Assembly (NCBI GenBank): GCA_038046805.1
Contig: JBBSVO010000006.1
Location: 215,166 to 279,165 of the forward strand
Direction: 5' to 3'
Source of the DNA: Candidatus Micrarchaeota archaeon
GTDB taxonomy: Archaea > Micrarchaeota > Micrarchaeia > Anstonellales > Bilamarchaeaceae
Length of the DNA stretch: 64,000 bases
Under the pieces are notes generated by a model, which worked only from the letters and a program-made list of their open reading frames with translations, was not told the origin of the DNA and made no database searches. The position numbers and the translations under genes were made by a program. This document shows positions 2,786 through 54,170 of this stretch, one piece after another (position 1 is the stretch's first letter; every line of letters starts with the position of its first letter).

Positions 2786-3021
2786 GTTATAAGGGCAAAA
2801 ACCTTCAGGAAAAACCATGGAGGTTTACGGAATCCTCCCATGCAGGGATTTTAAAAAACAATTGAGCCTTTTTGGCTTAGGGGTTATCAGGGCAAAAACA
2901 CGTCCGGTTGAACGGCGATCCGTTCAATGGACCATTGAAACCACCTTGTTTCAATAGGTCGCGAAAAACCATGGAGAAGCCAATAGTTTCGGCGCAATAC
3001 TCCCATGCAAAGGATGTTAAA
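2786..3021. repeat. Degenerate tandem duplication (copy 1 ~2786-2855, copy 2 ~2883-3021)
   Basis: Shared blocks gttat(a/c)agggcaaaaac, gaaaaaccatggag, ctcccatgca..ggat.ttaaa. Confidence 0.75.
2903..2960 (-). mobile_element. Double-hairpin micro-element copy 1
   Basis: Reverse complement GA-CCTA-TTGAAACA aggt GGTTTCAA-TGGTCCA-TTGAACGG atcg CCGTTCAA-CCG-GA. Confidence 0.75.
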
Positions 3022-3073
3022 CTTCTTCTTGCAGTCCACATGTTTTTAACAATAGCGGAACAAATTTTCAATT

Positions 3074-4186
3074 ATGTCCGAAGCACCATTAGTTGAAATA
3101 GACGCGTCAAAGGGAGAAGGCGGTTTGTTTGAACGACGAATCGTCCAAAGCCCGCCTTCCCAAAAAGGCAATTGCATGGTTGAAATAGACGCGTCAAAGG
3201 GAGAAGGCGGCGGTCAGATTATCCGAACTGCCCTTTCACTCTCAGCAATTACCAAAATTCCGGTTCGTATTTTCAATATTCGTGCTAAAAGACCTAATCC
3301 TGGCCTTCAGGCACAGCATCTTATGGCTTGCAAATCCGTTCGCAATATTTGTCGCGGAACTCTTGAACATGCGGAATTAAATAGCAGCGAACTTGTTTTT
3401 CATCCAGGGGAAATCGTCGGGGGCAATTATGAATTTGATATAGGGACTGCGGGTTCTGTTGTTCTTGTTGCCCAGACTTTGATTCCTATTCTTCTATTTG
3501 CAAACAAGAAAAGCACCGTTCGGATAAAGGGCGGTACTCATGTCATGAAATCTCCAAGTTATGATTATTTCGCAGAGGTCTTTGTTCCTGCTCTTCGGAA
3601 ATTTGGAATCGCTATTAAAACCCGTGTCTTGAAAATCGGTTTTTATCCTGTTGGCGGAGGAGAAATAGAATTTGAAATAGAACCGAACCTTCCGCATGGT
3701 GTGGTGAATTGGGCAACTCCTGATAATTCTGAAGGAAAAAGAGTATTGATCCGCACTTCCTCGTCTTTGCCCGAACTCATCTCTATTCGCGAAAAGAAAA
3801 TTTTTGTCCAGAATAATCTCGAAAATGTGCGGGTATTCTCCGACCAAACTGCTTCACAAGGAAACGCCATCTTGTTCTGGGAAGGTTTCTGCGGAGCATA
3901 TTCTCTTGGAGAAAGGGGAAAACGTGCAGAAGTGGTTGCTCAGGAAGCTCTTGATGAATTCAGAAAAGAAGAATCTGCGCAAGCCGACGTAGATAAGCAT
4001 CTTGCAGACCAGCTTCTTCTCTACGCGGCCCTTGCTGACGCTTCTGGCGAAAAGGCGGAGACGCGGTTCAAAACATCTGAAATAACGGAACATCTGCGTA
4101 CGAATGCAGAAATAATAAAAAAATTCAATAATAAAAAAATAGAAATAAATGAAGAGAAAAAAGAGGTTTTTGTTGGATCACTATAG
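3074..4186 (+). CDS. rtcA: RNA 3'-terminal phosphate cyclase; N-terminal 32-bp duplication, alternative start at 3176
   Basis: EIDASKGEGGGQIIRTALSLSAIT, RPNPGL, GFYPVGGG, DKHLADQL motifs. Confidence 0.93.
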   Translation: MSEAPLVEIDASKGEGGLFERRIVQSPPSQKGNCMVEIDASKGEGGGQIIRTALSLSAITKIPVRIFNIRAKRPNPGLQAQHLMACKSVRNICRGTLEHAELNSSELVFHPGEIVGGNYEFDIGTAGSVVLVAQTLIPILLFANKKSTVRIKGGTHVMKSPSYDYFAEVFVPALRKFGIAIKTRVLKIGFYPVGGGEIEFEIEPNLPHGVVNWATPDNSEGKRVLIRTSSSLPELISIREKKIFVQNNLENVRVFSDQTASQGNAILFWEGFCGAYSLGERGKRAEVVAQEALDEFRKEESAQADVDKHLADQLLLYAALADASGEKAETRFKTSEITEHLRTNAEIIKKFNNKKIEINEEKKEVFVGSL

Positions 4187-5437
4187 TTATTTGGTCGTCT
4201 CTGCTTTATTTAGTATTTCCTCCATATTTTTCTTGTCATCCTCGCTTATGTTCTGCCCGGTGGTGTTCTCCTTTGTAGGATTTTCGAACGGTTCATCACT
4301 TTGTTTTATCGTAGTCTTGTTTGTGGTGGCAAACTCCTCGCACATCGCAACCTTGGTGGAGTTCATTATACTGCTGCATATACTGGCGTTTTTCATTGTT
4401 CCGCCAAGTTCAATGTAACAATCGTCTTTTATGCCAGATTCGGTTACGAGTTTGCATATTCCAGTGTCTTTAGCCATTATTGCTAAATTGAGAATGCAGA
4501 TATTCTTTCTTCCACCGGCAAATTCGCACAGTTCAAGGTTTTCTTTGTCCAATGCCATAGAATAAACGCATTTATCATGTTCTATTCCCTCTTTTTCAAG
4601 GCATGCTATAAACGCATTCTGGTCATCGCTTGCAGCCTGAAGCAGGGTGACGGCCTTTCCGGCAGTCAGGTTCTCCGGAACTATTATCTCCTTATCATAT
4701 TTCCAATCGGATGAAACAAGATTCCATTTACTCGTGCGATCCTTTCCAAGATAATTATATGCGAATTCCTTAGAGATAATTTCGTTCTTTTCTTCGTTAT
4801 AACATAGTTTACTTTCGTATCTCTTTGGATCTCCCTGTCTTACATTAAGGCTCATCGCCTCGCTTAAAGTAAGGTTTGAATAGTCTATAACAAAGTTTAC
4901 TTCCGAGCATTTTTCTCCTTTTTCCGTGGTTTCAATAACCTCCTCAAACGTAATGGTGTTTTTTCCCTTCAGGAATTCAAATGTTTCCTTTGCAGAATCT
5001 ATCTTTTCGTTGCTGAAAAATTGCCCTCCAATCACCTTTAAGTATTTCGAGAGGGCTGCACTGGTGTTTTTTACAGAACTGCAGGCATATTCATCTTCAT
5101 ATTCTACACACATTACCGTGTCGTTTTCCGCAAAATAAATATTTCTTTCAGATATTGGAGTTTCTATAGTTACCTGGCGCACTGCTCCGTTCTTGCGAAG
5201 TGTTGTCCTCATGACATATTCATCAAGCGTTTCGTCATAGGCATATTCGTAATCTGTTGCGCCCTGGCCAACAAGAAGGCTTTTTTCATATATTTCAAGC
5301 GCATTGCCTGTGCTATCTTCTCCTTCACCACCGTGTTTTTGAAGGTTCGGAAGTGCATACATATAAACCGCATAACCTGCGGCAAGGAAAACGATAATCC
5401 CTAAAACCACCAGCAAAATATTTTTTACATCTGTCAT
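4187..5437 (-). CDS. Membrane-anchored extracellular protein with Cys-rich C-terminal repeats
   Basis: Start moved to MTDVKNILL (5437) because the upstream part of the tracked ORF overlaps a tRNA; N-terminal TM helix; repeated CxxI..D.CY-type motifs. Confidence 0.7.
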   Translation of the reverse strand: MTDVKNILLVVLGIIVFLAAGYAVYMYALPNLQKHGGEGEDSTGNALEIYEKSLLVGQGATDYEYAYDETLDEYVMRTTLRKNGAVRQVTIETPISERNIYFAENDTVMCVEYEDEYACSSVKNTSAALSKYLKVIGGQFFSNEKIDSAKETFEFLKGKNTITFEEVIETTEKGEKCSEVNFVIDYSNLTLSEAMSLNVRQGDPKRYESKLCYNEEKNEIISKEFAYNYLGKDRTSKWNLVSSDWKYDKEIIVPENLTAGKAVTLLQAASDDQNAFIACLEKEGIEHDKCVYSMALDKENLELCEFAGGRKNICILNLAIMAKDTGICKLVTESGIKDDCYIELGGTMKNASICSSIMNSTKVAMCEEFATTNKTTIKQSDEPFENPTKENTTGQNISEDDKKNMEEILNKAETTK

Positions 5438-5493
5438 AAGATAACCTCTGAACATTGGCTTTTTATATTTCTCATCTGTGCTTAAAAAGTTAT

Positions 5494-5895
5494 TGCAGGG
5501 GACAGGATTTTCAATTACCACGGGAGTATCACGCCTACGTTTTTCTTTTGGCGTGTCAGGAACGACCGACAAAACGACGCTTCGTTTTGTGGTCCATAAA
5601 ACGTTACGACGTTTTATCGGACGCATCGTTCCTGAGCATGTTCAAGAACGAAATGTCGTTCTTGACATGAAACCCTCAGACCTTTTCTTTTTTAAAAGAA
5701 AAGGGGTATGGGTTTGAACCTGTGAAGACGCTAGGTCATCAGATTTCCTATCCCGCATTCGGGAAAAGAACAAACGAGATCTTGAGTCTGACGCGTTTGA
5801 CCGTTGCGAAACCAGTTTCCAGTTGCCTGTTTCCAGTTCCCAAAACGCGAAACTGAAAACCCTAGACAGAAAACTGACTTCTCCGCCACCCCTGC
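5494..5895 (-). tRNA. tRNA-Leu(CAA) with three introns: D-loop (~5804-5880), anticodon loop (~5745-5780), T-loop 59/60 (~5508-5712)
   Basis: Reverse complement GCAGGGG-TG-GCGG-AG[77]CGGTCAAA-CGC-G-TCAGA-CT-CAA-G[36]A-TCTGA-long variable arm-ACAGG-TTCAAA[205]T-CCTGT-CCCCTGC-A; acceptor, anticodon and T stems pair perfectly after removal. Confidence 0.85.
5564..5621 (+). mobile_element. Double-hairpin micro-element copy 2 (inside tRNA-Leu T-loop intron)
   Basis: GA-CCGA-CAAAACGA cgct TCGTTTTG-TGGTCCA-TAAAACGT tacg ACGTTTTA-TCG-GA. Confidence 0.8.
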
Positions 5896-5955
5896 GCATT
5901 ATATTTGCTTTTTGCCGCACCACATTTTAAAACCTTGTTAGTCTATCATCTACTC

Positions 5956-7149
5956 ATGGCAGAGCCACTATGGTTCATTGAATACCCAGTATCATTCATC
6001 TCAATTTTCGTAGCCGTATTTTTCACACTGATTTATCTGAAGAATTTCAATAGGATGGAACACAAGTCAAAGCAGGCGCATGGCTGGGAACCAAAAATAA
6101 CAATTCTCATTCCTGCTTACAATGAGGAGAATTCTATAGCTGCATGTTTAGATTCAGTTCTGGCATCAGATTATCCTCGGGAAAAGATGGAAATACTTGT
6201 TCTGGATGACGGTTCTACTGATAAGACTGCAGAGATTGCCAAGCGTTATTCAACACATGGGGTAATCGTCTGCTCAAAAGAAAACACTGGAAAAGCAGAC
6301 TCTCTTAATTTCGGAATAAAAAAATCAACAGGAGAAATAATTGCAACGCTTGATGCGGATTCGTTTATAAGTCCATATTCCATACGCAGAATGCTTCCAT
6401 TGTTTGAAGATGAGACTGTTGGAGCGGTTGCTTCTGCAGTTAAAGTGAAAAAAGCAAAAAACCTATTGGAGGAGATCCAGCGCATAGAATATCTTTTTGC
6501 ATTATTTTCCCGCAAGGTTGTCAGCTTTATCGAATCCGTGCAGGTAACCCCCGGACCGTTTTCCATGTTCCGCAGATGGATTTTTGACAAGGTCGGCGAT
6601 TTTGATACAAAGAGCCTTGTTGAAGATCAGGAAATAGCACTGAGAATCCAATCTCATCATTACAAAATACGCTGCTCTCTCGATGCCGACGTTTTCACCG
6701 AAATCCCACGCACGTTCCTTGACTTGATGAAACAGCGCACCAGATGGCAACGCGGAGGGTTCTGGAACTCATTAAAATATCTTAAAATGATTAATCCAAA
6801 ATACGGGGATCTGGGAATGATTATTCTTCCGTTCGGTGTGTTTGGATATCTGATGCTTGTCATCTTCCTTGTGCTTGCGGTGTACTATATGTTTTATGGT
6901 TCTCCCTATCAGGAAGCGCTTAGCTATGATTCCTATCTGCTGGCATTCCGCGAGCTTCATGTTTTCGGAATTCTTATGATAGGCCTTGCGTTCCTGTGGC
7001 TGTTCTATGGGATGGGGAGGCTTTTCCGCGAGCAGGAGCTGCATCCAGTGTCAATCTTTTTATATATCATACTATATCCTATGTTGATAACGTTATTTTG
7101 GTTCTCCGCAGCGTATAAAGAGCTGCGCGGAGAGGGTTTCTCGTGGTAG
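5956..7149 (+). CDS. Family 2 glycosyltransferase (cellulose synthase/PgaC-like, multi-TM)
   Basis: IPAYNEE, DDGSTD, DAD, ED and QRTRW motifs. Confidence 0.9.
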   Translation: MAEPLWFIEYPVSFISIFVAVFFTLIYLKNFNRMEHKSKQAHGWEPKITILIPAYNEENSIAACLDSVLASDYPREKMEILVLDDGSTDKTAEIAKRYSTHGVIVCSKENTGKADSLNFGIKKSTGEIIATLDADSFISPYSIRRMLPLFEDETVGAVASAVKVKKAKNLLEEIQRIEYLFALFSRKVVSFIESVQVTPGPFSMFRRWIFDKVGDFDTKSLVEDQEIALRIQSHHYKIRCSLDADVFTEIPRTFLDLMKQRTRWQRGGFWNSLKYLKMINPKYGDLGMIILPFGVFGYLMLVIFLVLAVYYMFYGSPYQEALSYDSYLLAFRELHVFGILMIGLAFLWLFYGMGRLFREQELHPVSIFLYIILYPMLITLFWFSAAYKELRGEGFSW

Positions 7150-7174
7150 GTGTTGAAGTCGTAAAGGTGAATCC

Positions 7175-8239
7175 ATGGAAGACGATGCAAAACTGGAAAG
7201 AAAATCTCCGAATATTTCTCTCTATGTAATAGCGTTGGCTATTACGATCCTGATCTTCTTCACTGGAATCTATCTTGGTAGGGTTGTTGATAATTCGGTT
7301 CAACAGGGTATTGGCACCGATGTCGCATCACTTATTGAGCGAACAAATTCAATGGAGCTTTTGTTCCTTTTGGATAATTCTTCTGATTTTTGCCCGGTAT
7401 TCAAAGATGAATTATTGAAGATAGATTCGGATACAGAAAAACTCGGATACAAACTTGCGTATATCGAAGATATAAAAGGTGCTGGTGCGTCTGACCCAGA
7501 CCTAAAGAAAAAATATTTCGTTCTTGAAACCGAGGCCTACCTTCTTTCCAAGAGAATCGCGGAAAGTTGCGGGTCGAGTTACGCTAATTTCGACCTTGCG
7601 CTTTATTTCTATTCTAACAAAAAGGGCGCCTGTTTTGATTGTGATGCACAGGGAAAGGCCATTCTTGATGCGAAAAAAGAGCTTAACCGACCATTTAAGG
7701 TTTATTCTTTTGACGGGGATCTCGGAAGCACGGTTGCGGATGCGCTGAAAACAAGACATGGTGTGACGGTCTATCCTTCACTTGTAGTCAACGGGGTTCT
7801 TTATGAGGGTTTTGTTTCAAAGGAGGAATTGCTCGGACTTCTTTCCAAAAATGCAAAAGGTGATGAAGAAATGAAACTTACAGGGGAAAAACTTTTTGCA
7901 CCGTTTGGCGGGCAAACCTGCGTTTATTGGGAGAATTATGTCATAGAAGAAGGTCGCGTTTCTCAAAGTAAAAATCCATTCTATGCGGTAATTGACGGAA
8001 AGAAAATCGAGCTCGGTCTTCCACCCGCGCGCATTTTTATGAAACCGACATCTGAAAACGAAACTGTAAAAGAGTGGTGCCTCAGTCCGGATGCGGTTTA
8101 TCTTGTGGAAAAGGTAACTGAAACTGCGTCTCTTCCGGATTGGGACGAAGAAAAGACTGCGTATTACATTTCTGACGCAAAATACTCTTCAGAAGAAAGG
8201 AAAAAATATTCGACGCCTGCGAGCAAATGGACATACTAA
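7175..8239 (+). CDS. Membrane-anchored thioredoxin-fold protein with C-terminal extension
   Basis: N-terminal TM; YFYS..CFDC..G...YPSLVVNG; internal GGTGA + ATG at 7871. Confidence 0.6.
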   Translation: MEDDAKLERKSPNISLYVIALAITILIFFTGIYLGRVVDNSVQQGIGTDVASLIERTNSMELLFLLDNSSDFCPVFKDELLKIDSDTEKLGYKLAYIEDIKGAGASDPDLKKKYFVLETEAYLLSKRIAESCGSSYANFDLALYFYSNKKGACFDCDAQGKAILDAKKELNRPFKVYSFDGDLGSTVADALKTRHGVTVYPSLVVNGVLYEGFVSKEELLGLLSKNAKGDEEMKLTGEKLFAPFGGQTCVYWENYVIEEGRVSQSKNPFYAVIDGKKIELGLPPARIFMKPTSENETVKEWCLSPDAVYLVEKVTETASLPDWDEEKTAYYISDAKYSSEERKKYSTPASKWTY

Positions 8240-8314
8240 TATTTTGTCAGAATCGAAGCTTGTCAATGGAAATGTTTAAATATCCGCTATTCGTTATGTC
8301 CTTGGTGATATCGA

Positions 8315-8872
8315 ATGGTATTAGAGCTTGTCCTGATTGTGATCGTAGTCGTATTAGTCCTTATCTTATTGTGGGCAATGGGCACTTTCAATCGTTTCAT
8401 CGTCCTGCGCAACAGAATTGACAATGCCTTTTCACAAATTGACGTTCAATTGAAGCGAAGATACGACCTTATTCCAAACCTTGTTGAGTGTGTTAAGGGT
8501 TATGCAAAACACGAGAAAGAGACGCTTAATGATGTTATCAAGGCCAGAAGCGGGCTTGTGCAGGGAACCCCTGATGAAAGAATTGCAGCCAACAACATGC
8601 TTACTGGGGCATTGGGAAGATTAATGGTTGTCATGGAACAATATCCCAAGCTTATGGCAAACGAGAATTTCCTGAAATTGCAGGATGAGCTTGCCGGAAC
8701 CGAGAACAAGATTGCATATGTGAGAACAGCTTATAACGACTCTGTGCTTGAGCTTAACAATGCGATTATGGTGTTTCCCGGAAGTGTAATTGCAGGAATG
8801 TTCGGATTTGTCCAAAAGGCATTCCTCGAAACTCCGGGAGAGCAGCGCGAGAACGTGAAAGTCAAGTTCTAG
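8315..8872 (+). CDS. lemA: LemA family protein
   Basis: QIDVQLKRRYDLIPNLVE.VKGYA.HE; E.YP.L.AN.NF..LQ.EL..TENKIA. Confidence 0.95.
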   Translation: MVLELVLIVIVVVLVLILLWAMGTFNRFIVLRNRIDNAFSQIDVQLKRRYDLIPNLVECVKGYAKHEKETLNDVIKARSGLVQGTPDERIAANNMLTGALGRLMVVMEQYPKLMANENFLKLQDELAGTENKIAYVRTAYNDSVLELNNAIMVFPGSVIAGMFGFVQKAFLETPGEQRENVKVKF

Positions 8873-8958
8873 GCGCGCACTGGAGCCGTCCGGTTCCATT
8901 TCGTTATTTTTTCTCTTTTATTCTTATTCCGCTTTGTTTTTCGCACGGGGTTGCCATT

Positions 8959-9861: not shown

Positions 9862-9965
9862 AACTGTCAAGGTTGGTTCTTTATCAACGTCTAACTGCCA
9901 AATGCCAACCTTTAAATATGTGTTCTGCAAACATCTGTTTGTTTCTAATTTAGAGGTGAAACTAT

Positions 9966-10673: not shown

Positions 10674-10726
10674 ACTGGGTTATACTCCCTACCACTTTAT
10701 AAATCCTTGCAAAGAAAATTCTATTT

Positions 10727-25416: not shown

Positions 25417-26010
25417 TCACTTTACGAAGATTCTCGCAGCGAGTTTTCTGCCTATTGCAAGGTGCGTTCCACGCACTGAGATTTCTACCGGTCCTTTGAA
25501 CGGCGCTGCCTTTGTGATCGTGACCTGTGTGCCAGTTGTTAATCCCATATCTCTAAGTCTCTGTGCGGATTTTTTATCAGTCATTATCCCTAATATCTTC
25601 GTCTTTGCGCCAACATGCAAATTTGCCAGAGGGACTCCATTTTGCGCCAGAAGTTTTTTTATTCCTTTTTCTACGTCGTCTGGAATTGCATGTTCAAGAA
25701 CGCATGCCTTTTCATGAACTCTTCGTTTTATTCCGATTAATCCAAGAAATCGTTCCATTAACCGGTGTTTTCGGGTTACCTTCTCCCCGATTTTTCCCCC
25801 TTTTTTCGTAAGCTTTGCACCGTAATATGGTTTGTATATTAGTAGTCCTCGTTTTTCAAGTTTTTTCAACATCTCGCTTACGCTGGCAGGCTTTACATTT
25901 AATTCTCTGGCAATAGCGATTGCCTTTGCGCTTTCCTTCTTTTCCTTTTTCCGGTAAATCGCCTCAAGGTATTCTTCCATCTCCTCGCTCAGAAATTCCT
26001 GTTCAACCAT
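25417..26010 (-). CDS. DtxR/MntR-family metal-dependent regulator with FeoA domain
   Basis: EEYLEAIY, V.PASVSEML, RKHRL.E.FL, AC.LEH; C-terminal RLRDMGL..G FeoA domain. Confidence 0.92.
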   Translation of the reverse strand: MVEQEFLSEEMEEYLEAIYRKKEKKESAKAIAIARELNVKPASVSEMLKKLEKRGLLIYKPYYGAKLTKKGGKIGEKVTRKHRLMERFLGLIGIKRRVHEKACVLEHAIPDDVEKGIKKLLAQNGVPLANLHVGAKTKILGIMTDKKSAQRLRDMGLTTGTQVTITKAAPFKGPVEISVRGTHLAIGRKLAARIFVK

Positions 26011-26070
26011 AAAAATTTCACCATAAATTTTTATATTTGAAATTTTCTCTTAAAAATTTCAATCCATAAA

Positions 26071-34977: not shown

Positions 34978-35003
34978 CCTAAGGGTTTTCCGCAGATTTG
35001 AAC

Positions 35004-35059
35004 GACCAATCGAAACGACAGTTTCAATGGTCCATGGAACGTTGCGACGTTCTATCGGA
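35004..35059 (+). mobile_element. Double-hairpin micro-element copy 3
   Basis: GA-CCAA-TCGAAAC gaca GTTTCAA-TGGTCCA-TGGAACGT tgcg ACGTTCTA-TCG-GA. Confidence 0.8.
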
Positions 35060-35118
35060 CGATTCGTTCAATTGGGCTAAAAACAAGAAAATAAGATTGC
35101 GTGTGCAAGAGTTAATAC

Positions 35119-44120: not shown

Positions 44121-44125
44121 GTGAA

Positions 44126-45255: not shown

Positions 45256-45313
45256 GACCGACAAATCGGCGCACCGATTTGTGGTCCAGTGAACGGTTCG
45301 CCGTTCACTTGGA
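45256..45313 (+). mobile_element. Double-hairpin micro-element copy 4
   Basis: GA-CCGA-CAAATCGG cgca CCGATTTG-TGGTCCA-GTGAACGG ttcg CCGTTCAC-TTG-GA. Confidence 0.8.
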
Positions 45314-45926: not shown

Positions 45927-46050
45927 TTCGGAAATTCTTTCTTTTTTCTTATTTTTTCTATTTTTTGATTTTTTACGGTTTCTTTATTATTTTGCTTTCT
46001 TTGTCTGTTTCAGGATGGGCTATTTAAATATTGTGGTATATACTATATTT

Positions 46051-47115: not shown

Positions 47116-48369
47116 ACCCTTTTTATTTCCACACGCCAATTCCTCTATCGCTCTTGCCGCCCTTTCCCCTGATCCTCCGTCAATTGAGAGAAGCTGCTCG
47201 CTTAGGAATCCCTCACGGTTCTTTTCCATATTCTTTAGAAGCGTCGTGTCGCCAAGAAGCCTTCTTATTACTCCTTTGATTTCCTCTTTTTTTCTCATTT
47301 CCAGCGCAACTCCTTTGCTGACGTATTCCTCAGGATATGGGATACACGGGTATGGTCTTCCTGTAAGATTCACTATTCCGACAGGTCGTCCCATTATTAT
47401 TGCGTCAAGCGCAACACTGGAAATGTCTGTTAGAACTGCTCCAGAAACATCTATTAGGTCATAAATATTCGTGTCTTTGGTTACAATTACCCGGGTACGC
47501 TGCTCCGTCGTTAGATATTTGTCATAATCTGATTGAATTTCACGCGGATGGATTTTAATGATGAGTTGAACCTTCTCGTTATCATCCTTCATTTCGCAGA
47601 CTTCTGAAACCACGCTCTTTACAAAGTATTCCATGTCCTCATAAGTCCAGAGCCTTGCGCCTGCCAGATCTGATGTTGCAAGAAGGACAATTTTTTTGTT
47701 TTGCGGAATTCCGAACGTCTTTCGTATATCGCTTTTGGGTTTATATCCTCCGGAAAATTTATCGTAATCAGGGTTTCCAACAACAACTACTCGGGATGGT
47801 TCAGTGCCTTTATCCACAAGCATCTTTTTCGTGAATTCCCCAAACACTGCAATCCTTGTGCAGTTTCCGATTCCATAGCGCGCACGCGGCTTCACATTAT
47901 CATTTTGGATTTTGTTTTTGTTTCCAATCGCACGCAATTTATCTCCCAACCGTTTCAGCAGGTATTGCGGCTTGTAGAGCGAGAATGCCCTTAAAAGATG
48001 CCTGAATGTGAATTTTGTTGTTGCAGTGATTACATGGTATGCCCCGTCCTGAAGAGTTATGCTTGGAATCCCAAGTTCGTTTGCAGCATCAACAAACATT
48101 GCAGGGGTTACTTCAGTATAATTTCCAATGACAACAACAGAGGGCTTTTTGCGTTTTATAATATCACGTGCAGAGTCTATGTTGAGCTCTTCCAGTCTTT
48201 CATACGGGATTCCCGCGGCATCCAACGCTTCTTCTATTCCCTCTTGTTTGAACTTGGCTATGCTCACGACTTCTAATCTTTTGCGCAAATGCTTGGCAAC
48301 CGGAAGAAATTTTCTTATCTGGATGTCATTTCCGGGAATATAAAGGATACAACGATTGTTTTCTGTCAT
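47110..48369 (-). CDS. GT-B fold surface-carbohydrate protein (CDP-glycerol glycerophosphotransferase / UDP-GlcNAc 2-epimerase-like)
   Basis: VVGNP.YD, IKIHPRE, SSV.LDA...G.P, DGGSGERAA. Confidence 0.75.
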   Translation of the reverse strand: MTENNRCILYIPGNDIQIRKFLPVAKHLRKRLEVVSIAKFKQEGIEEALDAAGIPYERLEELNIDSARDIIKRKKPSVVVIGNYTEVTPAMFVDAANELGIPSITLQDGAYHVITATTKFTFRHLLRAFSLYKPQYLLKRLGDKLRAIGNKNKIQNDNVKPRARYGIGNCTRIAVFGEFTKKMLVDKGTEPSRVVVVGNPDYDKFSGGYKPKSDIRKTFGIPQNKKIVLLATSDLAGARLWTYEDMEYFVKSVVSEVCEMKDDNEKVQLIIKIHPREIQSDYDKYLTTEQRTRVIVTKDTNIYDLIDVSGAVLTDISSVALDAIIMGRPVGIVNLTGRPYPCIPYPEEYVSKGVALEMRKKEEIKGVIRRLLGDTTLLKNMEKNREGFLSEQLLSIDGGSGERAARAIEELACGNKKGL

Positions 48370-48394
48370 TTTGGTTCCACCCATGTTTCCTATT

Positions 48395-49180
48395 CTATTT
48401 TTTCCTAACAAGGCGAGACGAGTACTGCTGACTTAAGTCTGCAGGTAAATTTTTTGTAACTACCATACCGGAAGCAGTACCAGAGCCCGACACATCGGGT
48501 CGTCTCACCTTGTTACCCCACATTATTACCGGGTCTCCGAACCCTGTTTTTACAAAAAGGCATTTCTTGGATAAAGAGAACGGGATTGGAATGCGTTGGA
48601 CTGTTTCGACATGAAGTTCTTTCCATTCACCAGCCTTTTTCAGAATTCCTTCCCACTCTTTTGCAGAATGCGCATTTCTATATGCTGTTTTTGCCCTCAA
48701 CATCTTGAAAAAGAATGGGCGTTCAGAACTCGGTCCTGAACAAATAAATGTTCCGCCATCCTTCAGCGCGTTGTAGCAATTCCTCACCACGGCTTCCGGG
48801 TTTTCAATAAGTCCGAGCGTTCCAAGGCACGTGACCAAATCAAATTTTTCATTTACAGGAATCGGAAACGGCTTTGTTGCATCGTGAATGTAAAGATAAG
48901 CCTCGTCAATGTTTTTTCTAGCTTCTGTTATCGCATACGCTGAGACATCAAGACCATAAAGTTTTTCATATCCGTGCTCGCGGAATAATTCAAGCATATA
49001 TCCGTACGAGCATCCGACATCAAGAACCGCGCGGTAGGAACCATCTCCTCCTCTCCACCGGATTCCTAGAAAATCAAAAAGATCTCTGTGATATACTTTC
49101 ACATACTCCTGTATTCTTCGATAAGCCTCTCTTCCTTCCTCTGTTTTGAAATAAGCATCCTTACTGAAATCAAAAGACAT
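48395..49180 (-). CDS. Class I SAM-dependent methyltransferase
   Basis: VLDVGCSYG, GLDVS, FDLV, LKDGG. Confidence 0.85.
   Translation of the reverse strand: MSFDFSKDAYFKTEEGREAYRRIQEYVKVYHRDLFDFLGIRWRGGDGSYRAVLDVGCSYGYMLELFREHGYEKLYGLDVSAYAITEARKNIDEAYLYIHDATKPFPIPVNEKFDLVTCLGTLGLIENPEAVVRNCYNALKDGGTFICSGPSSERPFFFKMLRAKTAYRNAHSAKEWEGILKKAGEWKELHVETVQRIPIPFSLSKKCLFVKTGFGDPVIMWGNKVRRPDVSGSGTASGMVVTKNLPADLSQQYSSRLVRKK
48406..48515. repeat. Structured element with 16-bp terminal inverted repeats within the methyltransferase 3' end
   Basis: taacaaggcgagacga ... tcgtctcaccttgtta (15/16); internal gtactgct/agcagtac and cccga-caca-tcggg stems. Confidence 0.65.
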
Positions 49181-49234
49181 GTAATTTACCTCATTGCCTT
49201 GAGCCCATTGCTCATAGTTCAGGGCCTATGGCTT

Positions 49235-49924
49235 TTATTCTCTTGTTTTAATCACTTGTGCCGGAACTCCAACCGCAATAGAATTCGGCGGAATATCCTT
49301 TGTAACAACGCTATGCGCACCAATTACTGCGCCATTTCCTATAGTTACTCCCTTTAGAACCGACACCCCTCTTGCAAGCCATACGTTGTTTCCGATTTTA
49401 ACTGGTTTTGTGCGAATGCGTTCTTCATTCATATTCTCGCTTGCGTTTGTGTCATGGTCTGTGTCTATTATCATTACAAATCCCGAAATAAGGCAGTTGT
49501 CTCCTATATCTATTTTGTCAAACGCGTTAATGTTTGCAAGCTGTCCGAAATAGCAGTTTTTTCCGATTTTAAGCGTGCCGTTATAGGCTGTATTGAGCCG
49601 CACCATTTTCTCAAGATGCGTTCCGCCTCCGATTTCTATTTTTCCATTGTCCCGTGCCCAGATTTCACAATTGCCATCCAAACCAACCTCGTCGCCTAGC
49701 GCAATCTCGCCTTTATTATACGCGCGGAAGCTGTTCCACCCGCTCAGGCGGACGTTTCGCCCGATCTGTTTGCATTTTCGCATGATATTTAGTCTATTTA
49801 TGATAAGGAAAGGATTAAGCGCATCTACAAGGCGGTCCAGCACTATCTCTATTGTTTGCCAGAATCCGTATTTTGAAAGAAATCCAGATAGTTTATTGGA
49901 GACATGCCCTGGTTCGTAAACCAT
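49235..49924 (-). CDS. Hexapeptide-repeat acyltransferase
   Basis: IGDNCLI, PVKIGNNVWL, GVTIGNGAVIGAHSVVTKDIP...AVGVPA. Confidence 0.9.
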   Translation of the reverse strand: MVYEPGHVSNKLSGFLSKYGFWQTIEIVLDRLVDALNPFLIINRLNIMRKCKQIGRNVRLSGWNSFRAYNKGEIALGDEVGLDGNCEIWARDNGKIEIGGGTHLEKMVRLNTAYNGTLKIGKNCYFGQLANINAFDKIDIGDNCLISGFVMIIDTDHDTNASENMNEERIRTKPVKIGNNVWLARGVSVLKGVTIGNGAVIGAHSVVTKDIPPNSIAVGVPAQVIKTRE

Positions 49925-50005
49925 GCTAATATCTCATCTCCATGTATTTTAATTCTTACAGGTGTATAATCCACGTAATCTTTTATCGGTTTTTGGGTGT
50001 TTTCT

Positions 50006-52330
50006 ATGACTAAATCTAACTCTGGGGTTGAATTGTGGAAGCGTGCAAAGCAGATTATTCCGGGCGGCTCTCAATTGCTTTCAAAGCGTTCGGAAATGTT
50101 CCTTCCTGACCAGTGGCCTTCTTATTATTCTAAAGCAAAGGGGATTAACGTCTGGGATCTTGATGGAAACAAGTTTACGGACATGTGCATAATGGGCATC
50201 GGTGCGTGTATTCTTGGTTATGCTGATGATGATGTAAATCGCGCGGTAAAGGACAGGATTGACCGCGGCAACATGACAACGTTCAATTGCCCGGAAGAGG
50301 TTGAGCTTGCAGAAAAGCTGATTTCACTTAATCCCTGGGCAGGCGGAGTGCGCTATGCAAGAACTGGCGGGGAATCAATGTCAATGGCTGTTCGCATTTC
50401 GCGCGGGTATGCGAAAAAGGACAAAATCGCATTTTGTTACGATGATAAAACAGAGATTTTGACAAAAGACGGATTCAAAAAATTCGAGGATGTATGTGAA
50501 GAGGAATTAGTCGCAACACTTAATCCCCTTACAAATAAGCTGGAGTATCATAAAATAGACCGAAAAATAAAGCTTCAGTTTACAGGTAAAATGATACATT
50601 TTAAGGGCCAAAGAGTCGATATCTTAGTAACTCCTGACCATATGGTCTATCGAAAGTTTCGGTTAAAAAAGGGGCATCATTTTAAACTCATACGTGCTTC
50701 GAATGCTTTACAAAGAAAAGTAATGACTCAAATGACGAGTTTTTGTAATTGGGATGGAGAATCTAAAAACGAGAAATTCATTATTTCTGGGATTGAGAAT
50801 CAATCAAGACCGACAAAAGGATTAATGTCTTTTCCTATAAAGTATTTTGTTAGATTTATGGGTTGGTACTTATCTGAAGGTTGTTGTGTAAAACGAAAAA
50901 AACGTAAAACTTACGAAGTAGTTATAAGCCAGGATATAAAAAACAAAGAAAAAAGTGATGAGATATTTACAACAATCAGAAGTTTGGGATTTAAACCGTA
51001 TAGAAATGGACACCATATTTGTTTTAATTCCAAAGAACTCACACACTATTTGCAACAATTTGGGCATACTAAAGACAAATACATCCCAGCCTGGATAAAA
51101 AACCTGCCGCCTAGTTACTTGGCAATTTTTGTAGATGCTATCGTAAAAGGAGATGGCACATTTGAAAACGGCAGAATCAGAAAATTTTATTCTACTTCAA
51201 AGAAATTGATAGACGGGATGCAAGAAATTCTGTTAAAAATGGGTCATTCATCCACAGTTTCCGAAATTCATGGCAATGGTTTTTCAAAAGGTATGATATA
51301 CCACCTAAATATAGGGAGGGAGAAAATTTTGGGGTCTTGGCCAAAAGAAGAGCACTATGATGGCTTTGTATATTGTGTTACCGTTCCAAATCATATCATA
51401 TTGGTGCGAAGAAATGGAAGAATCGTGTGGTCTGGAAATTGCGGATATCACGGATGGTCTGACTGGTATCTTGCGACTAATCTAAAAGACCCTGGCGGAT
51501 TGAATGACCATCTTTTGAAAGGCCTTGAGCCTCTTGGAGTTCCGCAAAACCTCAGTGGTTCTGTACTGCCATTTCATTATAACAAAATAGAAGAACTCGA
51601 AGCATTAGTCTCCAAAAACAAGGATATCGGCGTAATCGTGGTTGAGGCAATAAGAAGCCAGAAGCCTGAGAACGACTTTTTGGGCAAGGTGCGAAAGATC
51701 GCGGATGAAATCGGGGCGGTCCTCGTATTTGATGAAATTACTTCTGCCTGGAGAATGACTATTGGTGGAGCGTATCCAATGTTTGGGGTAACGCCGGATG
51801 TCGTTGTATTCGGAAAGGCAATGAGCAATGGTTATCCGATGGCAGCGGTTGTTGGAAAGGCCGAAGTGATGGACGTTGCCCAACAGAGTTTTATCAGTAG
51901 CACTTACTGGTCTGAGGGTGTTGGGCCAACTGCGGCTCTTGCAACAATAAAAAAACTCGAGGATAAGGCTGTGCCAAAACATATTGTTGAAATTGGAAAC
52001 TACGCAGGTCATACCTGGGAGCGCCTTGGAAAAGAATCGGGCCTGAAGATTCATGTTGATTTCGGGTTCCCTCCGATAATGCATTTTGATTTTGAATATG
52101 AAAACAAACTCGCAATAATGACTTTGTTCACGCAGGAAATGTTGGCCAGAGGATATTTGGCCACGGGCGGCTTCTATGTTTCTTATTCCCATCAGAAATC
52201 AGACGTGGATAAATATGGGGAGGCCTGCGCCGAGGTATTCAAGCTGATAAAAAAAGCAGTTGATGATGGGAGTGTTGAAAAGCAGTTAAAAGGTCCGATT
52301 AAGCATTCTGGGTTCCAGAGATTGACTTAG
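50006..52330 (+). CDS. Class III aminotransferase (glutamate-1-semialdehyde aminomutase-like), intein-containing
   Basis: IPGGSQLLSKR, WDLDGN, GYHGW, FDEITS, FGKAMSNGYP (PLP lysine). Confidence 0.9.
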   Translation: MTKSNSGVELWKRAKQIIPGGSQLLSKRSEMFLPDQWPSYYSKAKGINVWDLDGNKFTDMCIMGIGACILGYADDDVNRAVKDRIDRGNMTTFNCPEEVELAEKLISLNPWAGGVRYARTGGESMSMAVRISRGYAKKDKIAFCYDDKTEILTKDGFKKFEDVCEEELVATLNPLTNKLEYHKIDRKIKLQFTGKMIHFKGQRVDILVTPDHMVYRKFRLKKGHHFKLIRASNALQRKVMTQMTSFCNWDGESKNEKFIISGIENQSRPTKGLMSFPIKYFVRFMGWYLSEGCCVKRKKRKTYEVVISQDIKNKEKSDEIFTTIRSLGFKPYRNGHHICFNSKELTHYLQQFGHTKDKYIPAWIKNLPPSYLAIFVDAIVKGDGTFENGRIRKFYSTSKKLIDGMQEILLKMGHSSTVSEIHGNGFSKGMIYHLNIGREKILGSWPKEEHYDGFVYCVTVPNHIILVRRNGRIVWSGNCGYHGWSDWYLATNLKDPGGLNDHLLKGLEPLGVPQNLSGSVLPFHYNKIEELEALVSKNKDIGVIVVEAIRSQKPENDFLGKVRKIADEIGAVLVFDEITSAWRMTIGGAYPMFGVTPDVVVFGKAMSNGYPMAAVVGKAEVMDVAQQSFISSTYWSEGVGPTAALATIKKLEDKAVPKHIVEIGNYAGHTWERLGKESGLKIHVDFGFPPIMHFDFEYENKLAIMTLFTQEMLARGYLATGGFYVSYSHQKSDVDKYGEACAEVFKLIKKAVDDGSVEKQLKGPIKHSGFQRLT
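50435..51439 (+). mobile_element. Intein (335 aa) with LAGLIDADG homing endonuclease
   Basis: Starts CYDDKTEILTKDG; block B VTPDH; EN blocks FMGWYLSEG and FVDAIVKGDG; ends VYCVTVPNH...VWSGN followed by Cys+1. Confidence 0.95.
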
Positions 52331-52372
52331 GGGGCTCAGGCAAATATTTGAGGAATGTTACCGAGTTCTTGA

Positions 52373-52386
52373 AGATGCAGGGGAAG
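52373..52386 (-). repeat. tRNA 3'-end-like direct repeat copy A (att-like)
   Basis: agatgcaggggaag = reverse complement CTTCCCCTGCATCT. Confidence 0.6.
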
Positions 52387-52508
52387 GATACTCAGAACTG
52401 ATCTGAGGCGATTTAGCACTCGGATGTAAAATTTGGCAGGAATTGTAATATATGCAAAATTGCCCACAAATAATATAAGATTTATCTAGAACGATACCCT
52501 GGCCTGAA

Positions 52509-53762
52509 CTAGTTTTTTAACAACCAGTCAATCAACGGAACAAACCGGATGCTGATCCCATTAATTTCTTGGGTTTTGGAGACGTTCTTCGTCAAAATTA
52601 TCGCAGTTTTCATCTTGAATTCTTTTGCACATTTGACAATCGCGTCTGTTTCTCTGGCCATTGTTTTTTCATCTTCCAGATCATATACGACCTGAATTAT
52701 CTGTTCTATGTGTGTTCCTTGTTTTATCAAGAAATCCACTTCCCGGCCTTCTGTATTTTTCCAATAGCATACGTCGTTATGTTCTCTTCTTTTTAGCTCC
52801 AGGAAGGTTAGATTTTCGAATAGTCTTCCCAAGTCCATTTTGCCAGTGGTGCTATGGGCAAAGCCAGTATCTCCGCAGTAAGCCTTTCTTGAGTACTGGG
52901 ATTTGTCTTTTATGTTGTAAGCAAATATCTGAACGAAGAAGAACAGATAGCTTGCCTGGGAGTAATGTTCGAATTGAAGTATTTTTTCTTTCCCGACTTT
53001 GTGCCCGATTGTTTTGAGGAAGTTCAGGCATTTGGAAGCGGAAAAGTACGGACTTTGTATCACATACCTTCCGAAAGTTTCAACGACCCCTGCATCTTCA
53101 TTCGAAACCTCGGCGACATCGAGACCGACAATGTCCTTGAAGTAGGAGTTCAAAATACGCACTTTGTCTATTTCCTCGTTTGTTAATGCAATTTCTGGAA
53201 ATCCACCATATTTGAGATATTCAAAAAATGCCTTCTCAAGCCTACCCTTTCCGGCGGTTGTTTTTTCTACTTCTAGTTTTTTGAACTGTAAGAACTCATG
53301 AAAAGAGAGCGGGTAAAGCTCGTATGGTAAGATTCTGCCTCTGAGAGGCTTGCTTGGCCAGACAAGATTCTTGCGTGACGAACTTACAATAAGCCGCAAT
53401 TTTCCCTTGAGCAGTTCATGAGTTCGTGCCAACCAGCCTTCCCAATCCTTCGAACTAGTTACTTCGTCCAGTAGCATGAAACCACCGTCTCCAAACCACT
53501 TTATTGTTTCATCTAGAACGTGTGTGTTATCCTTTATGCGACTGTCCTCTAAATTGATATAACAGACTTTTTCGCCTTGTGCAACAAGCTTTTGTGCCAA
53601 TAGCATAAGAACGCTTGATTTTCCAGCTCTCCGTATCCCCGTAATGGCAATTATTTTCGACTTGGAGTTGGCGATTATGGAATCAAAATCCACTTCTCTC
53701 TCAAGCAGTTTTTTTTTCTTGACGTAAACATTCCATTCTTCGAATACTTCGTTGGTTTCCAT
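52509..53762 (-). CDS. AAA+ ATPase (AAA_14 + DUF4143 type)
   Basis: GIRRAGKS, LDEV, L.GR.....YPLSF.EF, YL.YGGFPE, K.Y..DTG, LFEN, EVDF. Confidence 0.9.
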   Translation of the reverse strand: METNEVFEEWNVYVKKKKLLEREVDFDSIIANSKSKIIAITGIRRAGKSSVLMLLAQKLVAQGEKVCYINLEDSRIKDNTHVLDETIKWFGDGGFMLLDEVTSSKDWEGWLARTHELLKGKLRLIVSSSRKNLVWPSKPLRGRILPYELYPLSFHEFLQFKKLEVEKTTAGKGRLEKAFFEYLKYGGFPEIALTNEEIDKVRILNSYFKDIVGLDVAEVSNEDAGVVETFGRYVIQSPYFSASKCLNFLKTIGHKVGKEKILQFEHYSQASYLFFFVQIFAYNIKDKSQYSRKAYCGDTGFAHSTTGKMDLGRLFENLTFLELKRREHNDVCYWKNTEGREVDFLIKQGTHIEQIIQVVYDLEDEKTMARETDAIVKCAKEFKMKTAIILTKNVSKTQEINGISIRFVPLIDWLLKN

Positions 53763-53764
53763 GT

Positions 53765-53815
53765 ATTGTTCTAGTGTAGAACAATATATAAACTTTTCTG
53801 TTCTGCAGCAGAACA
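53765..53815. promoter_or_regulatory. Two palindromic operators flanking a TATA box
   Basis: ATTGTTCTA-gtg-TAGAACAAT (53765-53785), TATATAAA, TGTTCTGC-A-GCAGAACA (53799-53815). Confidence 0.6.
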
Positions 53816-53957
53816 ATAATCTGATTGTAGATATAGGTATTACGCTAGAGTAACATGATTAAATATTGCATTCCGAATGACGATTTTGTCATGTAGTTAG
53901 TTTATATGACAAGAGAACTACAACCAAAATTGGTTAGTGCACTCAGGTAGGAACGAT

Positions 53958-53974
53958 ATGCAGGGGAAGTAACC
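53958..53974 (-). repeat. tRNA 3'-end-like direct repeat copy B
   Basis: atgcaggggaagtaacc identical to copies C and D. Confidence 0.75.
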
Positions 53975-54112
53975 ACCTGCCAGGACTCAGTTCCCTACGA
54001 CGTAAAAATGTCGATTACAGCACGATTTTGTCGGTATCGGCAACCAACAGGTTGCTGATAGATTGAAACCGAAGCATCGGTTTCAGGATATCTACAAACG
54101 CCAAGTTCTGGC

Positions 54113-54170
54113 TCCGATTGTTCGACGCATCGAACAATGGACCATAAATCGCATTGGCGATTTATCGGTC
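54113..54170 (-). mobile_element. Double-hairpin micro-element copy 5
   Basis: Reverse complement GA-CCGA-TAAATCGC caat GCGATTTA-TGGTCCA-TTGTTCGA tgcg TCGAACAA-TCG-GA. Confidence 0.8.

What the first reader, a model, noticed from the sequence alone, without database searches (positions are those of the whole stretch)
2903..54170. A dispersed 56-58 bp double-hairpin element conserved in structure rather than sequence (5 copies)
Seen: copies at 2903-2960(-), 5564-5621(+), 35004-35059(+), 45256-45313(+) and 54113-54170(-) share the scaffold GA-CC(G/A/T)A-[8-bp stem, 4-nt loop]-TGGTCCA-[8-bp stem, 4-nt loop]-YYG-GA. The ten stems all differ in sequence (CAAAACGA, TAAAACGT, CAAATCGG, GTGAACGG, TAAATCGC, TTGTTCGA...) yet almost all pair perfectly. 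They keep their length (one is 7 bp) and usually have CG next to the loop. The scaffold is nearly self-symmetric. It can fold as two bulged hairpins (GACC[G]A..TGGTC and TCCA..T[C]GGA) or as a three-way junction closed by CCGA/TCGG. Inference: a non-autonomous mobile micro-element recognised as folded ssDNA or RNA, conceptually like REP/BIME substrates of RAYT HUH nucleases or integron attC sites, with a possible GA target duplication. I do not recognise it as a described archaeal repeat.
Basis: partly seen in the sequence, partly recalled or inferred. Interest (0 to 1): 0.92.

Follow-up and report, generated by a model that had tools for sequence, protein, structure and literature searches.

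The report
Mobile double-hairpin mini-element in tiny archaea
The five flagged stretches are real copies of a 56-base selfish DNA element that folds into two hairpins, keeps its shape rather than its sequence, and jumps between spots (often into the loops of other hairpins) in a family of ultrasmall groundwater archaea; it resembles bacterial REP repeats, but the enzyme that moves it is unknown.

Summary
All 5 copies sit at the stated coordinates (0 expected by chance). The 1.2-Mb archaeal genome holds 16, and a covariance model finds the family in 61 of 99 genomes of the same taxonomic family.

Across 43 distinct copies, 98.8% of stem cells are paired. There are 201 compensatory cells and only 3 G-U cells, which fits a DNA hairpin better than an RNA.

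The unit is 56 nt (CCNA-hairpin-TGG + TCCA-hairpin-TNGGA), not 58. The left "GA" belongs to the target, so there is no GA duplication. Evidence:
- 13 of 43 copies lie in the loop of another hairpin, and removing the 56 nt restores a perfect hairpin (site GA|CG).
- One clean empty site separates two congeneric genomes.
- None of the 7 sites compared is shared between them, so turnover is fast.

The element belongs to a larger set of hairpin elements in this genome.

Mover candidates, compared with the element across genomes:
- IS200 transposase: no association.
- Zn-ribbon tyrosine recombinase: no association.
- Reverse transcriptase: no presence/absence association, but it is present in all 5 highest-copy genomes, a post-hoc lead left open.

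Closest known are bacterial REP/BIME elements, CGTC-type REP heterodimers and mitochondrial double-hairpin elements. Earlier reports of this scan described the same family on other DNA of this genome.

The parts
2903..2960 (-). Copy 1 of the type A double hairpin (56-nt unit 2903-2958). It lies between divergent genes and is not nested. The flanks read CGCGA|..|CGTG.
   Evidence: The orthologous region of the congener G001 lacks about 180 bp including the element.
5564..5621 (+). Copy 2 (56-nt unit 5566-5621), nested in the loop of the first hairpin of a second kind of double-hairpin element.
   Evidence: removing the 56 nt restores TCAGGAACGA-cgca-TCGTTCCTGA.
5554..5667 (+). Type B double hairpin (TGTC-hairpin-GAGCATGTTC-hairpin-GACA) that hosts copy 2.
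   Evidence: A paralogous sequence at G000:C9:12771-12829 lacks it (TTCA^CGCC against TTCA[TGTC..GACA]CGCC).
5513..5706 (-). G000-specific insertion of about 195 bp that contains the type B and type A elements. It interrupts the T-arm of a tRNA-Leu-like gene (about 5497-5900, minus strand) and is probably an intron.
   Evidence: The alignment with G001, which has the uninterrupted T-arm and acceptor end. ARAGORN and Rfam do not call the gene. The tRNA reading is my inference.
35004..35059 (+). Copy 3 (unit 35006-35059), between convergent genes (M50 peptidase and S8e) and nested in a host hairpin.
   Evidence: In runs X7 and X8 about half and two-fifths of the contig depth carry A at 35036, which turns the G-T pair into A-T.
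34998..35071 (+). Host hairpin of copy 3: arms TTGAACGA (34998-35005) and TCGTTCAA (35064-35071), loop CGAT (35060-35063).
45256..45313 (+). Copy 4, between two co-directional genes; not nested.
   Evidence: G001 carries a type B double hairpin in the same intergenic region instead.
54113..54170 (-). Copy 5, upstream of an AAA_14/DUF4143 ATPase gene. An identical copy with the same flanks lies at G000:C11:19771-19828 (segmental duplication).
   Evidence: It is absent at the orthologous G001:C68 site.
53983..54178 (-). A 196-bp unit, with copy 5 at one end, that is 93% identical in a genome of another genus (G002).
835..838 (.). Empty site. The congener G001 (C65:623-681) has a type A copy inserted in this A-run.
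   Evidence: G000 GGACA-AAACCC against G001 AGACAA[CCGA..TCGGA]AACTC.
57028..57049 (.). Solitary canonical hairpin of the same superfamily (TTTGAACGG-aacg-CCGTTCAAA), of the kind that serves as a landing site.

Best explanation
The five sites are copies of a 56-nt non-autonomous mobile DNA element. The unit is two abutting bulged hairpins, CC(N)A-stem-loop-TGG and TCCA-stem-loop-T(N)GGA. Every scaffold base is paired, so joining the two ends would give a closed rod.

The two hairpins are inverted copies of one kind of unit (tag CCGA, stem of 8 bp plus a closing A-T, loop CGNN, tail TGG), joined tail to tail with one base between them. This is a REP-like heterodimer.

The element is recognised by shape and by the short scaffold, not by stem sequence. 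It inserts strand-specifically without target duplication just 3' of a GA (rarely AA or CA), preferably at GA|CG on the 5' edge of the loop of another hairpin of the same superfamily. That preference produces nests.

Shown: the fold, the covariation, the nesting, the empty sites, and the turnover between congeners.

Inferred: that the recognised form is single-stranded or cruciform DNA, that a circular or rod intermediate exists, and that an enzyme supplied in trans does the cutting and joining. That enzyme is not identified.
For: - **Copy number and range.** 16 copies in the 1.2-Mb genome. The covariance model finds matches in 61 of 99 genomes of the family, in 17 of 23 genera. In a phylum sample of 141 genomes (including G000), 15 have a match: G000, 11 of 26 others of the same family, and 3 of 114 in other families.
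- **Structure.** 98.8% of 943 stem cells are paired, against 74.8% in shuffles and 27-47% when partners are slid. 201 cells are compensatory and only 3 are G-U.
- **Unit length.** The 56-nt unit folds, linear or circular, into two complete hairpins with nothing left over.
- **Nesting.** In 13 of 43 copies, removing CCNA..GGA restores a perfect hairpin of 6-11 bp with a 4-nt loop. The site reads GA|CG in 12 of those 13.
- **Empty sites.** A clean one lies at window 835-838. Copy 5 is missing from G001. A paralogous empty site exists for the type B host element.
- **Turnover.** None of 7 sites compared between G000 and its congener G001 is shared.
- **Strand specificity.** All 16 G000 copies have A at both flank positions together with T at the centre.
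- **Location.** All five window copies are intergenic or in a probable intron.
Against: - No mover was found. Y1 (IS200) transposase is absent from 4 of the 5 further high-copy genomes tested and present in 3 of 5 genomes without the element. In the 36-genome set, 5 have both, 16 the element only and 6 Y1 only.
- The Zn-ribbon tyrosine recombinase is found in 29 of 61 genomes with the element and 14 of 38 without. Reverse transcriptase is found in 18 of 61 and 10 of 38.
- 0 of 98 ORFs flanking copies in relatives match a transposase or recombinase family.
- No read or contig skipping an element, and no circle junction, was seen (contigs only).
- The copy 5 / G001 comparison fits a 58-nt insertion as well as a 56-nt one, because the flank has diverged.
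- The scaffold was fixed by the search pattern, so its invariance among the 43 copies says nothing.
Confidence: 0.7

Rival explanations
1. It is a miniature derivative (PATE/REP-like) of the resident IS200/IS605 element. The IS200 TnpA moves it in trans by the single-strand peel-and-paste route.
For: The genome has an IS200-type TnpA (103 bits, cut-off 55) in at least 2 copies. Insertion without duplication, 3' of a short motif, with subterminal hairpins, is the IS200/IS605 style. In G000 and G001 double hairpins cluster just upstream of tnpA. In the first 36-genome set, the genomes with TnpA had the highest element counts.
Against: The IS's own end hairpins (CCCACGGC..GCCGTGGG and ACGGCTAAAGCCGT) are unlike the element's. 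The prediction failed on new genomes: 4 of 5 high-copy genomes lack Y1 and 3 of 5 zero-copy genomes have it. On one strand the two hairpins are mirror images (bulge and loop inverted), unlike the LE and RE of IS608-type elements. The double hairpins near tnpA lie inside the IS leader, like passengers.
Confidence: 0.15
2. No dedicated enzyme exists. The element spreads among similar hairpins by template switching or short-patch gene conversion at stalled forks. Hairpin mismatches are repaired in the folded state, which keeps the stems perfect.
For: Host hairpins share 6-10 bp arms (..GAACGA / TCGTTC..) that could serve as microhomology. No mover is found. Stems are almost purely Watson-Crick.
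Against: 30 of 43 copies are not in a hairpin and their flanks share only GA|. The empty site at window 835-838 has no homology to other sites. Orientation is fixed relative to the target strand.
Confidence: 0.1
3. It is a functional structured RNA, for example a transcript end-protecting or regulatory double hairpin, kept at each locus by selection.
For: Covariation is strong. Copies lie in intergenic regions and within a probably transcribed tRNA intron.
Against: There are only 3 G-U cells in 943, and almost no one-sided changes. No site is shared with the congener (0 of 7). Copies occur between divergent, convergent and co-directional genes alike. They nest inside one another. No Rfam family matches. 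The scaffold is almost the same on both strands: reverse-strand model scores are only about 18 bits lower.
Confidence: 0.07
4. It is a mobile bulge-helix-bulge intron, or it moves through RNA by reverse transcription.
For: Copies sit in probable tRNA introns. The tRNA genes of this genome are unusually intron-rich: ARAGORN calls only 10, all with odd introns. The genome has a reverse transcriptase gene, and the five genomes with the most copies all have one (noticed after the fact). For the mitochondrial double-hairpin elements of Allomyces an RNA route was proposed because they lack flanking duplications (passage in PMC2800124).
Against: The predicted folds show single-base bulges and no 3-nt bulge / 4-bp helix / 3-nt bulge motif (inspection). 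Most copies are not in tRNA genes. Reverse transcriptase presence does not track the element (18 of 61 against 10 of 38).
Confidence: 0.05

Closest known systems
Bacterial REP / BIME / REPIN repeats moved by RAYT (Y1 HUH) transposases
   Same: A short extragenic palindrome with a conserved tag beside the stem. Copies are paired in inverted orientation, dispersed in many copies, and thought to be handled as folded single strands.
   Different: There is no GTAG tag. The two hairpins of a pair have different stems and fold separately, whereas the arms of a REPIN pair with each other. No RAYT is present (RAYT model 22.7 bits against a cut-off of 80). The host is an archaeon. Stem sequences vary far more between copies.
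CGTC/TGTC-tagged REPs of bacteria (Rickettsia RPE-4/6, Neisseria dRS3 and others; Di Nocera et al. 2013, PMC3733652; passages read)
   Same: 8-9 bp stems with A/T at the outer positions, 4-5 nt loops and a 3-nt tail. Dimers are often heterodimers, with spacers as short as 1-2 bp. Some sit inside target palindromes and some inside genes. No dedicated transposase is known.
   Different: That paper reports them from bacteria only. Their dimers are mostly head to head, whereas type A is tail to tail. The type A tag is CCGA, not CGTC; only the neighbouring type B element carries TGTC.
Mitochondrial double-hairpin elements of Allomyces (Paquin, Laforest and Lang 2000; seen only as cited and summarised in PMC2800124) and yeast mitochondrial GC clusters (PMC4478555; search listing only)
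   Same: Tiny two-hairpin elements conserved in fold. They differ in number between close species and lack flanking duplications.
   Different: They are organellar and, as I recall, G+C-rich. No sequence or scaffold relation is evident. Details of their scaffold were not available to me.
Integron attC sites
   Same: Defined by a folded single strand with extrahelical bases rather than by sequence.
   Different: An attC is one long imperfect hairpin at the end of a gene cassette within an array next to an integrase. Here the copies are solitary, gene-less and scattered between housekeeping genes.
Palindrome-associated transposable elements (PATEs) of haloarchaea, IS200/IS605-derived
   Same: Archaeal, gene-less and bounded by hairpins.
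   Different: PATE ends match those of a resident IS200/IS605 element. Here they do not.

Membership tests
REP/REPIN-RAYT system | A conserved GTAG tetranucleotide at the 5' foot of the palindrome | tested here: not met
   The tag is (GA/T)CCNA in all 43 aligned copies.
REP/REPIN-RAYT system | A many-copy extragenic palindrome, commonly as inverted pairs | tested here: met
   16 copies in 1.2 Mb. Each is a tail-to-tail pair of one unit type. All five window copies are non-coding.
REP/REPIN-RAYT system | A cognate RAYT gene, usually single-copy and flanked by the repeats | tested here: not met
   The only Y1 protein scores 22.7 bits on the RAYT model (cut-off 80) and 103.2 on the IS200 model. 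It is present in at least 2 copies. It shows no phyletic association with the element.
CGTC-type REP (Di Nocera 2013) | A CGTC (or TGTC/CCTC) tag, 8-9 bp stem, 4-5 nt loop and 3-nt tail | tested here: inconclusive
   Stem, loop and tail fit. The type A tag does not. The co-resident type B element does carry TGTC. The features are taken from passages of PMC3733652.
IS200/IS605-derived MITE (PATE) | Ends identical to the LE/RE hairpins of a resident IS200/IS605 | tested here: not met
   The IS end hairpins differ from the element's hairpins.
IS200/IS605-derived MITE (PATE) | Insertion without target duplication, 3' of a short fixed motif, on one strand | tested here: met
   13 nested copies and 1 clean empty site fit a 56-nt insertion after GA (or AA). 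All 16 G000 copies share one polarity.
Integron attC | Located at cassette boundaries in an array beside an integron integrase | tested here: not met
   Copies are solitary between housekeeping genes. 0 of 98 flanking ORFs is an integrase. The genome's tyrosine recombinases do not track the element.
Archaeal bulge-helix-bulge intron | Two 3-nt bulges separated by a 4-bp helix at the boundaries | tested here: not met
   The predicted folds have single-base bulges only. This was judged by inspection; no dedicated BHB scan was run.
Any Rfam family | A match at the family's gathering score | tested here: not met
   0 matches in the window at gathering scores. Around copy 2 there are only chance-level hits at E 0.4-0.5.

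The most novel reading that the evidence does not exclude
These archaea may carry a REP-like system that runs without a RAYT. In this reading, 56-nt single-stranded circles fold into closed rods and are cut and rejoined at GGA|CC. They are pasted into the look-alike site CGA|CG at the edge of hairpin loops by a structure-specific enzyme of a kind not yet linked to transposition, either host-encoded or carried on an unassembled plasmid or virus. The result would be a self-targeting, nesting population of hairpin parasites whose stems are free to drift.
Probability: 0.25. Interest if true: 0.8.

Novelty: new variant of a known kind. Interest (0 to 1): 0.6.

Why it matters
REP-type hairpin repeats are textbook features of bacteria. 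Their mode of spread is understood only where a RAYT transposase is present, and the CGTC-type REPs still have no known mover.

This is a well-defined archaeal counterpart in genomes of about 1 Mb:
- The unit has exact boundaries (56 nt).
- The landing site is clear (GA|CG at hairpin loops).
- Turnover between congeners is fast.
- Three obvious enzyme candidates were compared with it. Two (IS200 TnpA, Zn-ribbon tyrosine recombinase) look unlikely. The third (reverse transcriptase) shows no presence/absence link, but it does occur in all five highest-copy genomes.

The small gene sets make a phyletic hunt for the mover practical. Annotation of these genomes should therefore take them into account.

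Tried and rejected
- **Pattern scan of all species genomes.** It was useful only as a no-stem control and says nothing about range.
- **Sequencing runs.** Only assembled contigs were available. DNA contigs of three groundwater runs bridge copies 3, 4 and 5 with the element in place. No joint skips an element. The single RNA run (X16) has thin, patchy cover and says nothing about transcription of the element.
- **tRNA detection.** ARAGORN and Rfam do not call the tRNA-like gene around copy 2, so that reading rests on my alignment with G001.
- **Search for an autonomous element.** Looking for a longer element with the same ends separated by cargo, I found that nearly all 37 half-units in G000 belong to type A or type C double hairpins. 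The exceptions are three apparent singles (C3:64180, C4:86385, C7:65840). One of them (C4:86385) is half of a type A split by an inserted type B. No pair with cargo between the ends was seen.
- **IS110-type transposase.** None found in the genome.
- **Copy 1 and copy 2 regions against G001.** G001 lacks about 180 and 190 bp including the elements, but the breakpoints are composite and give no exact junction.
- **Copy 3 site.** G001 has an unrelated 1.26 kb there, and I looked only at its two ends.
- **Flanks of the G001 copy L027.** They map about 0.55 kb apart in G000, so they are not usable as an empty site.
- **Earlier-findings look-ups.** The look-up by sequence returned nothing.


Full report
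**1.

The central heptamer alone is not enriched (8 found, 6.2 expected).

As single-stranded DNA the five copies fold with z-scores of -3.0 to -6.8, and 0 of 200 shuffles fold as well.

The window is archaeal: ribosomal protein S8e, CGI-121 and a class III signal peptide are present. It lies in a 1.2-Mb, 16-contig genome that is 86% complete and is found in groundwater metagenomes. Earlier notes of this scan call the organism Micrarchaeota. I did not check that name.

**2. Census and range.**

- The strict pattern finds 15 copies in the genome and a relaxed one finds 16. The backwards-read control pattern finds 0.
- In 60 relatives, 12 of 36 genomes of the same family have strict matches, and 0 of 24 from eleven other families of the order.
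- A covariance model built from 43 distinct copies finds matches in 61 of 99 family genomes, in 17 of 23 genera. Each element hits on both strands, the reverse about 18 bits lower, so hit counts are roughly twice copy numbers. They also include the related type C elements.
- In a phylum sample of 141 genomes (including G000) at E <= 1e-4, 15 have a match: G000 itself, 11 of 26 others of the same family, and 3 of 114 in other families. Two of those three are in the same order and one is in another order. The two largest other families score 0 of 43 and 0 of 25.
- A scan of all species genomes with the bare pattern returned only chance matches without stems.

**3. Structure.**

On the 43-copy alignment, 98.8% of 943 cells form standard pairs. 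Column shuffles give 74.8%, and slid partners give 27-47%.

All 16 stem pairs, the only variable ones, show changes on both sides. There are 201 compensatory cells but only 3 G-U cells and almost no one-sided changes.

The search pattern fixed the scaffold but put no constraint on the stems, so the stem result is unbiased. The scaffold's invariance says nothing.

The three-way-junction alternative fails. Its only variable pair reads GC 18, GU 13, AU 3 and unpaired 9, which is how two bulged bases behave.

The near absence of G-U pairs argues for pairing that matters in DNA, or for arms kept identical by repair, rather than for an RNA under selection.

**4. Anatomy.**

The two hairpins are the same kind of unit read on opposite strands. 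Each has tag CCNA, an 8-bp stem plus a closing A-T, a top that reads CG-N-CG-NN-N'-CG (loop CGNN), and tail TGG. They are joined tail to tail around one base.

Without the leading GA, the remaining 56 nt fold, linear or circular, into two complete abutting hairpins: CC(N)A..TGG and TCCA..T(N)GGA. No base is left over apart from two single-base bulges and two loops. Joined end to end, the unit would form a closed rod. In that rod the join GGA|CC lies opposite the central T. This is an inference.

**5. It moves.**

(a) Nesting. In 13 of 43 copies, removing the 56 nt restores a perfect hairpin with a 6-11 bp stem and a 4-nt loop. The insertion point is GA|CG in 12 of the 13, always at the 5' edge of a CGNN loop or its mirror position. 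Window copies 2 and 3 are of this kind.

(b) Empty sites.
- The congener G001 has a copy in the A-run at window 835-838. The base count fits a 56-nt insertion with no duplication, or equally 55 nt plus one duplicated A.
- Copy 5 is missing at the orthologous G001 site. The flank there has diverged too far to choose between 56 and 58 nt.
- G001 carries a type A nested inside another type A where G000 has neither.

(c) Turnover. Of 7 sites compared between the two congeners, none is shared. Coding DNA between the two is 80-89% identical. For the copy 3 site I saw only the ends of G001's unrelated 1.26-kb filler.

(d) Polarity. All 16 G000 copies have A on both flank positions together with T at the centre. 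In nested copies the element always follows the GA of the target strand.

The left GA is therefore target sequence, not a duplication.

**6. It is one member of a hairpin population.**

The genome has 527 perfect hairpins with stems of 8 bp or more, against 115 in a shuffle. These reduce to 310 distinct hairpins. Of those, 154 have 4-nt loops, 71 have the CG-N stem top, and 52 also have a CG loop.

Other double-hairpin scaffolds exist:
- Type B: TGTC-hairpin-GA(G/A)CATG(N)TC-hairpin-GACA.
- Type C: CGC(G)-hairpin-GCGCCC-hairpin-(C)GGGA.

Copy 2 sits in the first hairpin of a type B element (window 5554-5667). A paralogous sequence on contig C9 lacks that type B element precisely.

At G000:C4:86385-86545 a type A carries a type B in its centre and a second type A in its second hairpin.

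Identical stems recur across genera in different combinations, so hairpins behave as modules. In the one case checked (G002 against copy 5), the shared element is part of a larger 196-bp unit that is 93% identical.

**7. Who moves it?**

- **IS200 transposase.** The genome has an IS200-type TnpA (103 bits, cut-off 55). It scores only 22.7 bits on the RAYT model (cut-off 80), and its best solved relatives are Sulfolobus transposases. It lies in an IS of about 844 bp present at least twice. The IS end hairpins differ from the element's. Type B and type C elements lie in its leader. In the first 36 relatives, 5 genomes had both the element and Y1, 16 the element only, 6 Y1 only and 9 neither. The Y1-positive genomes had the highest counts, so I predicted that Y1 would be present in further high-copy genomes. 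That failed: 1 of 5 has it, and 3 of 5 zero-copy genomes have it.
- **Zn-ribbon tyrosine recombinase.** It has three paralogues in G000, one beside a tRNA gene with an AbiE pair. It is found in 29 of 61 genomes with the element and 14 of 38 without. It is absent from high-copy G001, G020, G029 and G117.
- **Reverse transcriptase.** It is found in 18 of 61 genomes with the element and 10 of 38 without. All five highest-copy genomes have it. I noticed this after the fact, and those genomes are not independent.
- **IS110-type transposase.** None found.
- **Flanking genes.** 0 of 98 ORFs flanking copies in 12 relatives match a transposase or recombinase family.

These assemblies are incomplete and repeats often fail to assemble, so absences carry limited weight.

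**8. Other checks.**

- No Rfam family matches.
- Contigs from three other groundwater runs carry copies 3-5 unchanged. The exception is A instead of G at 35036 in part of the depth in two of the runs, which repairs the G-T pair of copy 3. No joint skips an element.

**9. Comparison with known elements.**

The best functional match is bacterial REP/BIME. Within that group the closest are the CGTC/TGTC-tagged REPs: 8-9 bp stems, 4-5 nt loops, 3-nt tails, frequent heterodimers, occasional nesting in palindromes, and no dedicated transposase (PMC3733652, passages read). That paper reports bacteria only.

A 2025 survey calls generic intergenic palindromes 'REPs' in Euryarchaeota and Crenarchaeota, with no DPANN genomes (PMC12306157, passages).

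Mitochondrial double-hairpin elements are a second analogue (PMC2800124, passages).

My searches for Micrarchaeota or DPANN hairpin repeats found nothing relevant. These searches cover open-access papers and bioRxiv preprints only.

**10. Verdict.**

This is a real, mobile, structure-defined mini-element. It is a new (archaeal, tail-to-tail, heterodimeric, self-nesting) variant of the REP kind, and its mover is unknown.

Earlier reports of this scan reached the same general reading on other DNA of this genome. My additions are:
- the 56-nt unit and its complete fold;
- the GA|CG landing rule and the strand polarity;
- the covariation statistics;
- the family-wide census;
- the failed association tests for three enzyme candidates.

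Noticed in passing
window 5497-5900 (minus strand): A tRNA-Leu(CAA)-like gene whose T-loop is split in G000 by about 195 bp. G001 has the intact T-arm and acceptor end. ARAGORN finds 0 tRNAs in the 64-kb window and only 10 in the whole genome, all with odd introns, so tRNA genes here seem heavily interrupted.
   Followed up: partly
window 49997-52330 (+): A 777-aa ORF that combines a class-III aminotransferase domain with a LAGLIDADG domain in its middle. It looks like an intein-containing enzyme.
   Followed up: no
window 53983-54178; G000:C11:19763-19959; L033 1493-1687 (G002): A 196-bp non-coding unit with several small hairpins and copy 5 at one end. It is 92-93% identical between two genera whose genes are about 65-70% identical. 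It lies upstream of an AAA_14/DUF4143 ATPase gene in the window. In G035 a different type A copy also lies next to such a gene.
   Followed up: partly
G000:C11:460-1718 and 6568-7779 (L207); also G005:C71, G013:C87, G064:C38, G082:C41, G033:C4: A reverse-transcriptase gene lies 3-6 kb from a tyrosine recombinase of about 400 aa with a C-terminal zinc ribbon in at least six genomes of the family. This looks like a shared integrative element, possibly with a diversity-generating retroelement.
   Followed up: no
window 26009-26062; G000:C4:57947-58000 and C4:64118-64143: Another A/T-rich double-hairpin type (ATAAAAATTT.. and TTGAAATTTT.. stems, 6-nt loops) with at least three copies.
   Followed up: no
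G000:C7 last 60 bases and C8:1-100: A 57-bp unit carrying the hairpin AGTGAACGA-aacg-TCGTTCACT, repeated in tandem at two contig ends. The array probably broke the assembly. It does not look like a CRISPR array, but I did not analyse it.
   Followed up: no
L208 1037-1310 (G000:C4:77536-77809): A tRNA gene next to an integrase and an AbiE toxin-antitoxin pair. It has a partial T-arm duplicate and a degenerate type A copy inside its interrupting sequence.
   Followed up: no
window 2780-2900: A stretch of about 100 bp upstream of copy 1 is a diverged direct repeat of the sequence that copy 1 sits in, without the element. G001 lacks both repeats.
   Followed up: no
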